Source: Centroscyllium fabricii
Taxonomy: Eukaryota
Assembly: GCA_051313645.2 (NCBI GenBank)
Contig: JBNRSN020000039.1
Coordinates: forward strand, 6,510,001 to 6,574,000
Length of the DNA: 64,000 bases
Direction: 5' to 3'
Below, piece after piece: positions 43,261-44,169 of the stretch (its first letter is position 1; each line of letters starts with the position of its first letter). Both the position numbers and the translations under genes were made by a program. The notes under the pieces are model-generated. The model was not told the DNA's origin. It made no database searches and was given only the letters and a program-made list of their open reading frames with translations.

Positions 43261-43565
43261 AAATTAGTTAGTTTATTTGGTGAACCAACAAGACCAGAAG
43301 AACGAAACCCGCCGTCCCTGAATGTAATTAAAGGACTGGGTAAGATATACTATTCTCTATAAGCAAAGCAGCCGGCAATATTCGCCAAGCTGCAAGACAT
43401 CGCACAGATCATGATCGAGAAAGACAACGTTTGGCGGCAGTCCAGGAGGGACAAGAAGAATCAAACTCAAAAATCACAACTGCAGTGACAAAACCTGCTG
43501 AGTATGAATCACTTGGTTTTTCATAACCAAATCTAGTCAGGTGGTAAAGGTGTCGCCAGGTTAAT

Positions 43566-43773
43566 AAATGCAGGAAGTCACACAACACCAGGTTATATTC
43601 CAACAGTTTTATTATAAATCACAAGCTTTCGGATCTTATGCCCCTTCGTCACCTGACGAAGGGGCATAAGCTCCGAAAGCTTGTGATTTAAAATGGAACT
43701 GTTGGATTATAACCTGGTGTTGTGAGACTTCTTGCATTTGTCCACCCCAGTCCAACACCGGCACCTCCACATC
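43566..43773 (+). mobile_element. Mini Penelope-derived palindromic insertion (two inverted pLTR ends)
   Basis: Arms 43566-43651 and 43654-43739 are inverted homologues; 14-bp TSD GTCGCCAGGTTAAT/GTCACCAGGTTAAT with one mismatch. Confidence 0.85.
43649..43686 (+). ncRNA. Minimal type I hammerhead ribozyme motif
   Basis: ucac-CUGACGA-a-ggggc-auaa-gcucc-GAAA-gc-UU-guga: stem I UCAC/GUGA, 5-bp stem II, palindromic AGCU stem III. Confidence 0.75.
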
Positions 43774-44169
43774 GTCACCAGGTTAATGGGGAATACATTT
43801 AACTGTGCTTTTTCCCTCATTCTGCTGTTACGTCCCCATTCCCAGTTACTGTATATTTGTATATGTTTAGTCCTGTAAACTGACTTGACATAATGTTCTT
43901 TCTGTTATCAATTTTGATTGTGGTGATTTTTAATAAAATCAGTTTTCTTTCAACGAGCCTGTTTTCCACTCCGTTTGTATATCGCAAACCTGCACGTACG
44001 TCCAGTTTCTAGAAGCTCAGGGACGTGGGAGTGGTTCGATTCGCTCAAGGAAGTCCGAAGCAAAACTGACTCCAACGTGCACGCCCCCTACATATTTAAG
44101 GATGGACATACGTTCATTGGAGACAGTTCAGATAAGTTTATCTATGTTGATTCCTGCGATGAAGTGACT

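What the first reader, a model, noticed from the sequence alone, without database searches (positions are those of the whole stretch)
43552..43787. 208-bp protein-less palindromic retro-insertion centred on a hammerhead ribozyme
Seen: a 14-bp TSD flanks two inverted Penelope pLTR ends that meet at CTTCGTCA-CC-TGACGAAG. The plus strand has a full minimal hammerhead (CUGACGA, 5-bp stem II, GAAA, AGCU, stem I UCAC/GUGA). The minus strand has the same motif but with GUGACGA. Established: Penelope-like elements carry minimal type I hammerheads thought to act as dimers, and often have inverted pLTRs. Inference: the inversion point lies right at the ribozyme. The RNA could fold either as an ~85-bp hairpin or as a ribozyme, so this may be a minimal non-autonomous, retrozyme-like unit mobilised by the Penelope family seen at 63233.
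Basis: partly seen in the sequence, partly recalled or inferred. Interest (0 to 1): 0.7.

Follow-up and report, generated by a model that had tools for sequence, protein, structure and literature searches.

The report
Penelope stub palindrome, rebuilt each insertion
This 208-base mirror-image insertion is real and has hundreds of look-alikes in the genome, but it is a short stub of a very common Penelope-type jumping gene whose two halves were most likely copied separately onto the two cut DNA strands and joined back to back at each landing, so it is probably not a self-spreading ribozyme element.

Summary
In detail: 14-bp TSD (one mismatch), two head-to-head pLTR ends, a 34-nt tail on one side, an intact minimal hammerhead on + and a broken one on -. 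The exact junction recurs 291 times; the family tail occurs 74,636 times; intact 890-aa RT/endonuclease parents exist elsewhere (63233 is itself a truncated palindrome). The unit does not behave like a copied master: relative to the tail, the 2-nt centre reads CC in 428 and GG in 455 loci, both forms occur within the same subfamilies, arm-specific differences are private, junctions vary, and the tail-less arm is often the longer one. Best reading (0.8): both target strands prime cDNA on the element RNA at two sites about 34 nt apart; the two cDNA ends join, here through TCA-GG-TGA self-complementarity, and the G.G mismatch resolves either way. Arm ends pile up just downstream of an initiator-like TCAGT, about 30 nt upstream of the ribozyme cut site, so the centre more likely marks the RNA start than ribozyme action. 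The architecture is known, and this scan has noted it many times before in this and other genomes. Useful mainly as mechanistic evidence.

The parts
43552..43565 (+). Left target-site duplication (GTCGCCAGGTTAAT); its 3' end is the inferred primer of the short-arm cDNA
43566..43651 (-). Short (tail-less) arm: inverted 5'-truncated pLTR end, starting at the inner of the two family end points
43619..43656 (-). Broken hammerhead copy (UCAG-GUGACGA core, stem II mismatch GAUCC)
   Evidence: sequence
43649..43656 (.). Junction TCA-CC-TGA: self-complementary 3+3 bases with a 2-nt mismatch centre; reads CC or GG relative to the tail at about 1:1 genome-wide
43649..43686 (+). Minimal type I hammerhead of the pLTR: stem I UCAC/GUGA, CUGACGA, extra A, 5-bp stem II, GAAA, AGCU; predicted cut after 43682 (H17 = U); activity untested
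   Evidence: sequence; features as in PMC4209133; family variation
43654..43739 (+). Tail-bearing arm, the part mirrored by the short arm (sense pLTR end)
43740..43773 (+). 34-nt 'tail' found on one side only; in intact parents it lies directly before the ATG of the 890-aa ORF
43774..43787 (+). Right target-site duplication (GTCACCAGGTTAAT)
63235..64000 (-). Short arm of a second, longer head-to-head insertion of the same family (centre near 63943, only the last codons of the endonuclease, other arm and tail beyond the window, split by an LTR-type element); not autonomous
35570..36196 (-). Older, diverged tail-bearing copy of the same family (about 79% identical over the end)

Best explanation
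The 208-bp palindrome is a dead-end, 5'-truncated insertion of an abundant Penelope-like retroelement, most likely built anew at this site rather than copied from a palindromic master. Shown: TSD, two head-to-head pLTR ends, a one-sided 34-nt tail, intact parents, about 1:1 polarity of the centre, private arm differences, variable junctions. Inferred steps: (1) the element's endonuclease makes a staggered cut about 12-14 nt apart; (2) each 3' end primes reverse transcription on element RNA, one at the end of the tail and one about 34 nt upstream, usually on the same or a sister RNA; (3) when the 5' leader is the template, both cDNAs run through the uncut hammerhead and stop at or near the RNA 5' end, likely an initiator-like TCAGT 13-19 nt upstream of the ribozyme; (4) the two cDNA 3' ends are trimmed and joined; here TCAGGTGA pairs with TCAGGTGA (6 pairs around a G.G/G.G mismatch), and repair or replication fixes CC or GG at random, leaving exactly one intact hammerhead core. 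The ribozyme is a passenger and would be folded shut in a read-through transcript.
For: 291 exact junction copies, control 0, different flanks and TSDs (TSD found in 26 of 30 tail-bearing copies). Polarity 428 CC: 455 GG (binomial P 0.38), both in the same subfamilies, e.g. loop AAAAG 5:5, AGAAG 5:5. Of the first 90 tail hits, 51 have an inverted short arm within 1.5 kb and 48 a TSD of 8 or more, mostly 12-13 bp. In 42 resolved junctions the short arm reaches further upstream than the tail arm by >8 nt in 15, the reverse in 7; in L045, L058 and L096 the tail arm extends only 5-10 nt past the tail while the short arm is 42-89 nt, which a fold-back of the tail cDNA or a later flip of the spacer cannot produce. 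Arms of one insertion differ by a median of 1 change against 6 between insertions, but L105 carries arms of two subfamilies. 40 of 42 arm-specific differences are private; the two shared ones are CpG transitions. 41 of 84 arm ends fall within -6..+13 of the CC; single-arm insertions end there too; 13 ends lie 0-3 nt downstream of the initiator-like A and none 1-10 nt beyond it. Intact 890-aa ORFs with RVT_1 (E 9e-10) start right after the tail. In vitro, an anole PLE cuts and extends both strands from two RNA sites that bound the tail, without needing ribozyme cleavage (PMC11167929).
Against: All mechanism steps are inferred from genomic footprints; no biochemistry here. A 1:1 polarity could also arise by later inversion of the 2-nt spacer between near-identical arms, and arm concordance by conversion between arms. 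39 of 90 tail copies show no short arm within 1.5 kb, and several are clearly single-armed, so two-strand priming is not obligatory. The transcription start is not mapped: about 9 of the 31 ends counted downstream of the initiator-like A are alignment failures from subfamily divergence, 67 of 113 arms were set aside as references, and the same pyrimidine tract resembles a 3' splice-site region. The 90-locus sample is the first 23 Mb of one contig; 8 of 50 junctions were unresolved and dropped. Published interpretation of such palindromic junctions was self-priming (PMC3846280).
Confidence: 0.8

Rival explanations
1. The palindrome is a non-autonomous, retrozyme-like unit transcribed and mobilised whole by the Penelope protein.
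For: The exact junction recurs 291 times, 883 with looser patterns; it keeps the tail region that the protein would bind; non-autonomous PLE derivatives and retrozymes exist.
Against: Both centre polarities at 1:1 inside each subfamily; no shared arm-specific variants; short-arm start varies and abuts a locus-specific TSD; only 3 of 42 resolved junctions are this one; ribozymes are opposed and only one core is intact, unlike tandem retrozymes; the hairpin would bury both ribozyme and pLTR end.
Confidence: 0.05
2. One cDNA, primed at the tail, folds back on TCA-GG-TGA and copies itself (self-priming); the mirror arm is cut 34 nt short by the endonuclease; later spacer inversions equalise the polarity.
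For: Arms of one insertion are nearly identical (median 1 difference); 20 of 42 junctions are symmetric within 8 nt; self-priming was proposed for PLE palindromic junctions (PMC3846280).
Against: Predicts GG only and short arm never longer than tail arm; observed 428 CC: 455 GG, 15 longer short arms, three insertions with almost no arm overlap, and arms from two subfamilies in L105. Near-zero-divergence copies already show both polarities.
Confidence: 0.1
3. Same two-cDNA origin, but the ends pile up here because the reverse transcriptase stalls (ribozyme fold, pyrimidine tract or splicing factors at a 3'-splice-site-like signal), not because the RNA starts here. This competes with step 3 only.
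For: Many arms run far past this point, so read-through templates are common; in D. virilis an intron ends at the 5' side of hammerhead helix I (PMC4209133); the tract has branch-point-like and polypyrimidine features (by eye).
Against: Sharp edge at the A of TCAGT-like motifs across subfamilies with tracts of different length: 13 ends at -3..0, none at +1..+10 (with the caveats given).
Confidence: 0.3
4. Sequencing or assembly fold-back artefact.
For: Palindromes are a known long-read artefact (recalled); no public contig spanned this locus.
Against: Arms differ at 7 of 86 positions, are asymmetric (tail on one side), and are flanked by a TSD; hundreds of loci share the design with their own TSDs.
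Confidence: 0.01

Closest known systems
Insertions of endonuclease-bearing Penelope-like elements with an inverted 5'-truncated pLTR, one-sided 30-40 bp tail and TSD (Adineta Pen2/Pen2a/Pen3a, PMC3846280; overview in PMC8557442; passages read)
   Same: Head-to-head inverted pLTR, palindrome at the junction, one-sided tail (34 nt), TSD of about 12 bp.
   Different: No ORF left at all (208 bp); thousands of such stubs; the published reading is self-priming on an antisense template, whereas polarity and arm-length data here favour two separately primed cDNAs.
Poseidon element of Anolis (PAc) in vitro, PMC11167929 (parts 1-2 of 4 read; supplements not seen)
   Same: Both target strands cut and extended; two RT start sites bounding the tail; hammerhead just upstream and not needed for insertion.
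   Different: Here the ATG follows the tail (in PAc it lies in the ribozyme) and the parent has a CX4CxxC linker (Neptune-type); the paper, in the parts read, does not derive inverted insertions from two-strand priming.
Minimal type I hammerheads of metazoan PLE pLTRs, PMC4209133 (parts 1-2 of 4 read)
   Same: CUGANGA/GAAA core, extra base between 9 and 10.1, G10.1-C11.1, palindromic helix III; the paper already notes opposed pairs 100-700 bp apart as likely truncated PLEs.
   Different: Here the two motifs overlap at the centre, so only one core is intact; H17 is U.
Non-LTR retrozymes (PMC7229834, passages; bioRxiv 10.64898/2026.07.22.740005, part 1 of 5)
   Same: Small, protein-less, type I hammerhead, PLE-related.
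   Different: Retrozymes are head-to-tail tandem repeats with at least two same-strand ribozymes that release monomers and circles; this is head-to-head with one intact core and shows no master-copy signature.
LINE-1 twin priming (recalled, no call)
   Same: Two primers from the two target strands, two cDNAs joined by microhomology, giving an inversion inside a TSD.
   Different: In L1 the second primer anneals far inside the RNA and the two cDNAs cover different parts; here both start about 34 nt apart and cover the same part, giving a palindrome.

Membership tests
EN+ Penelope-like element insertion | Parent with single ORF, RT then GIY-YIG endonuclease | tested here: met
   890-aa intact ORFs in L154 and twice in L155; RVT_1 E 9.4e-10. 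Pfam gave no GIY-YIG hit; the VYLI...YIGET motif is read by eye and recalled.
EN+ Penelope-like element insertion | Tandem or partial-tandem organisation producing pLTRs | tested here: met
   L155 tandem with 3,142-bp period; L154 pLTR-ORF-pLTR plus inverted arm.
EN+ Penelope-like element insertion | Inverted 5'-truncated copy adjacent to the 5' end | tested here: met
   Window; 51 of 90 unbiased copies.
EN+ Penelope-like element insertion | 30-40 bp tail on one side only, and a TSD | tested here: met
   34-nt tail 43740-43773; 14-bp TSD; family mode 12-13 bp.
Neptune clade of PLEs | CX2-5CxxC zinc-finger-like linker between RT and EN | tested here: met
   CHSNLCKTC in the parent ORF; criterion from PMC8557442.
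Neptune clade of PLEs | RT phylogeny groups with Neptune | not tested
   No tree built; no named PLE references on hand.
Minimal type I hammerhead | Core CUGANGA...GAAA...UH, extra base after A9, G10.1-C11.1, palindromic helix III, stem I | tested here: met
   Plus strand 43649-43686; family variants change mainly N7, loop II and wobble-compatible stem positions (pattern-biased). Rfam models do not detect it.
Minimal type I hammerhead | Same core on the minus strand | tested here: not met
   G at position 3, stem I and stem II mismatches.
Minimal type I hammerhead | Self-cleavage (as dimer or with protein help) | not testable with these tools
   Genomic proxy only: arm ends at the cut site 1,175 against 901, 773, 855, 609 at -3, -1, +1, +3, confounded by microhomology.
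Non-LTR retrozyme | Head-to-tail tandem units with two or more intact same-strand hammerheads | tested here: not met
   Head-to-head, one intact core.
Non-LTR retrozyme | Spreads as a unit from a master copy | tested here: not met
   1:1 polarity in each subfamily, private arm differences, variable junctions.
Non-LTR retrozyme | Expressed as monomeric linear and circular RNA | not testable with these tools
   No RNA run on record holds the sequence; only contigs could be laid.

The most novel reading that the evidence does not exclude
The stubs are a genome-wide record of the unsolved Penelope integration step: a dimeric enzyme primes both cut strands on the RNA's 5' leader, makes two strong-stop-like cDNAs and joins their ends; the 1:1 CC/GG centre is the fossil of that heteroduplex, the main pile-up of ends maps the promoter start, and a minor class of ends at GCUU^GUGA (including loci where both arms, or three successive run-offs, stop there) records hammerhead cleavage in the germline.
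Probability: 0.45. Interest if true: 0.55.

Novelty: new member of a known kind. Interest (0 to 1): 0.3.

Why it matters
As an element it is ordinary: one of tens of thousands of stubs of a known class. Its value is mechanistic. How Penelope-like elements make their inverted pLTR and one-sided tail is still open in print; the 428:455 centre polarity, the insertions whose tail-less arm is longer, and the occasional two-subfamily insertion give countable predictions that separate two-strand priming from self-priming and can be checked with the existing in vitro system. It also warns against calling such palindromes MITEs, pre-miRNAs or retrozymes in repeat annotation.

Tried and rejected
Rfam scan: no hammerhead family at E<=1; only two unrelated hairpin matches below gathering score. 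Pfam on a 340-aa C-terminal piece found nothing; on the full ORF only RVT_1. L122 was fetched on the guess that L034 continued into the ORF; it does not and was not used further. Expression: no RNA holder listed; DNA contigs laid on the locus did not span it; contigs of guessed-RNA runs from other organisms cover the family end but cannot show starts or ends: no evidence either way. Ribozyme cleavage as the cause of this junction rejected: the joint is 30 nt upstream of the cut and both arms contain the uncut site. Cleavage footprint in the family: modest peak only (1,175 vs 609-901), about a fifth of the listed hits are TCAC microhomology joins between the two helix I strands and the controls include small indels: inconclusive. 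The 63233 copy as driver rejected. Segmental duplication linking 43552 and 63233 rejected: no flank homology, different TSDs. Five literature searches found no paper deriving PLE inverted insertions from two-strand priming; subscription journals and the supplements of PMC11167929 were not seen and may hold this.

Full report
Observation. The sequence shows a 208-bp insert (43566-43773) between a 14-bp direct repeat with one CpG-type mismatch. It consists of an 86-nt arm on the minus strand, a CC centre and the mirror arm plus 34 extra nt on the plus strand; the arms are 91.9% identical and fold at -144 kcal/mol, z -20. The plus strand carries a complete minimal type I hammerhead at 43649-43686 with the predicted cut after 43682; its features match those listed for PLE ribozymes in PMC4209133 (parts 1-2 of 4 read). 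The minus-strand copy is broken in the core, stem I and stem II. Rfam does not detect either. The centre lies at the 5' edge of the ribozyme, 30 nt upstream of the cut site.

Family. The 34-nt end occurs 74,636 times as an exact pattern in the 7.2-Gb genome. Copies that continue past it run into an ATG, and three intact 890-aa ORFs were found in two of three loci fetched, with RVT_1, a CHSNLCKTC linker and an endonuclease-like C-terminus (motif read by eye, recalled). The linker points to the Neptune type (criterion in PMC8557442, passages); no tree was built. The copy at 63233 is not such a parent: it is a longer head-to-head insertion with its centre near 63943, its own TSD, only the last endonuclease codons, and an LTR-type element inserted in the other arm.

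Is the palindrome a mobile unit? The exact 26-nt junction occurs 291 times, control 0, and 30 loci examined have different flanks, with a TSD found in 26 of the 30 tail-bearing copies including the window (one mismatch allowed). But a master RNA would fix the centre relative to the tail. It is not fixed: 428 loci read CC and 455 read GG (P 0.38 for 1:1), 15:15 in the sample, with both forms in each larger subfamily. A master would also pass on differences between its arms; 40 of 42 arm-specific differences are private and the two shared are CpG transitions. In an unselected sample (the first 90 tail hits, 23 Mb of one contig) 51 have an inverted tail-less arm within 1.5 kb and 48 a TSD, mostly 12-13 bp. 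One of the 51 was a separate insertion and 8 junctions could not be resolved; among the 42 left only 3 have this junction, the rest join at other points with short microhomologies or small insertions. Retrozymes are head-to-tail repeats with two or more same-strand ribozymes (PMC7229834 passages; bioRxiv 2026.07.22.740005 part 1); this element is head-to-head with one intact core, predicted to be buried in the hairpin.

How it forms. Both arms read as antisense cDNA starting from the 3' end of a TSD copy, one at the tail end and one about 34 nt upstream. Frangieh et al. (PMC11167929, parts 1-2 of 4) showed in vitro that a PLE protein cuts and extends both strands from two RNA sites bounding the tail and does not need ribozyme cleavage. 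If two such cDNAs end near the ribozyme's 5' edge, TCAGGTGA can pair with TCAGGTGA around a G.G/G.G mismatch, which resolves to CC or GG at random: the observed 1:1. The published alternative, self-priming (PMC3846280 passages), in its single-cDNA fold-back form predicts GG only and a mirror arm never longer than the tail arm. The mirror arm is longer by more than 8 nt in 15 of 42, shorter in 7; in L045, L058 and L096 the tail arm reaches only 5-10 nt beyond the tail while the other arm is 42-89 nt, leaving no homology for a later flip. Arms usually come from the same source (median 1 difference against 6 between insertions, 62 pairs, one of them a false pair), but L105 joins two subfamilies. 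Against full generality: 39 of 90 copies show no short arm within 1.5 kb and several are single-armed with a TSD; and late spacer inversion or arm conversion cannot be excluded for symmetric copies such as this one.

Why here. 41 of 84 arm ends lie within -6 to +13 of the CC, and single-arm insertions end in the same tract. Upstream lies a pyrimidine tract starting at an initiator-like TCAGT (motif recalled). Of 46 arms not used as references, 13 end 0-3 nt downstream of its A and none 1-10 nt beyond it; about 9 of the 31 ends scored downstream are alignment failures, and 67 of 113 arms served as references. The likely reading is run-off at the RNA start when the 5' leader is the template; stalling at the ribozyme or a splice-site-like signal remains open (0.3). 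No RNA data could test it. Some loci are suggestive (both arms stop at the site in L166 and L177; three successive run-offs stop there in L162-164), but helix I microhomology and indels confound the counts; inconclusive, and irrelevant to this copy, whose template was uncut.

Novelty. The architecture, the palindromic junction, the tail and opposed minimal hammerheads in truncated PLEs are all in print. Five searches found no paper deriving the inversion from two-strand priming, but supplements and subscription journals were not seen. This scan has 111 notes with these words in at least 22 genomes and 18 in this genome, several with the same reading; they are unchecked notes, and my reading was recorded before seeing them. 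Verdict: real, a new member of a known kind, interest 0.3, for its value as evidence on PLE integration.

Noticed in passing
window 43593-43625 and 63253-63285: The short arms of two independent insertions 19.7 kb apart share two substitutions absent from their own tail arms; the exact 33-mer occurs only at these two places in 7.2 Gb. Their tail arms share a further rare A>G. Short-patch ectopic conversion between neighbours is the likeliest cause; unexplained.
   Followed up: partly
L031:1788-6458 (just right of the window): An LTR-type retroelement with 282-bp direct terminal repeats (94% identical) splits the tail arm of the 63233 insertion.
   Followed up: no
L154:2694-5363 (-); L155: Intact 890-aa PLE ORFs, two in a 3,142-bp tandem with 99.5% identity: the family is young and may be active.
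   Followed up: partly
L162-L164, L159, L166, L177: cDNA run-offs that stop exactly at the predicted ribozyme cut site, once three times in a row with re-priming, once followed by a T run.
   Followed up: partly
L028; L123/L124; L128; L160: Insertions into another copy of the element, or template jumps between the pLTR end and the ORF start, giving composite stubs.
   Followed up: no
window 11995-12925 and 39742-40655: Two copies (83% identical) of another element, each with a roughly 300-bp internal palindrome (12271-12574, 40074-40380); these give the weak MIR2646/MIR2670 Rfam matches below gathering score.
   Followed up: no
window 21027-24505 and 36202-37812: Decayed Ty3/gypsy-like pol and integrase frames, about 72% identical to each other (family name from motifs, recalled).
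   Followed up: no
window 13363-13824 (-): A 153-aa frame that looks like part of a G-protein-coupled receptor (by eye, not searched).
   Followed up: no
window 4328-4736, 8541-9330, 41146-41394, 42764-43018, 52688-52873, 57622-58005, 58926-59183: A dispersed SINE-like repeat family of 250-400 bp, 79-90% identical.
   Followed up: no
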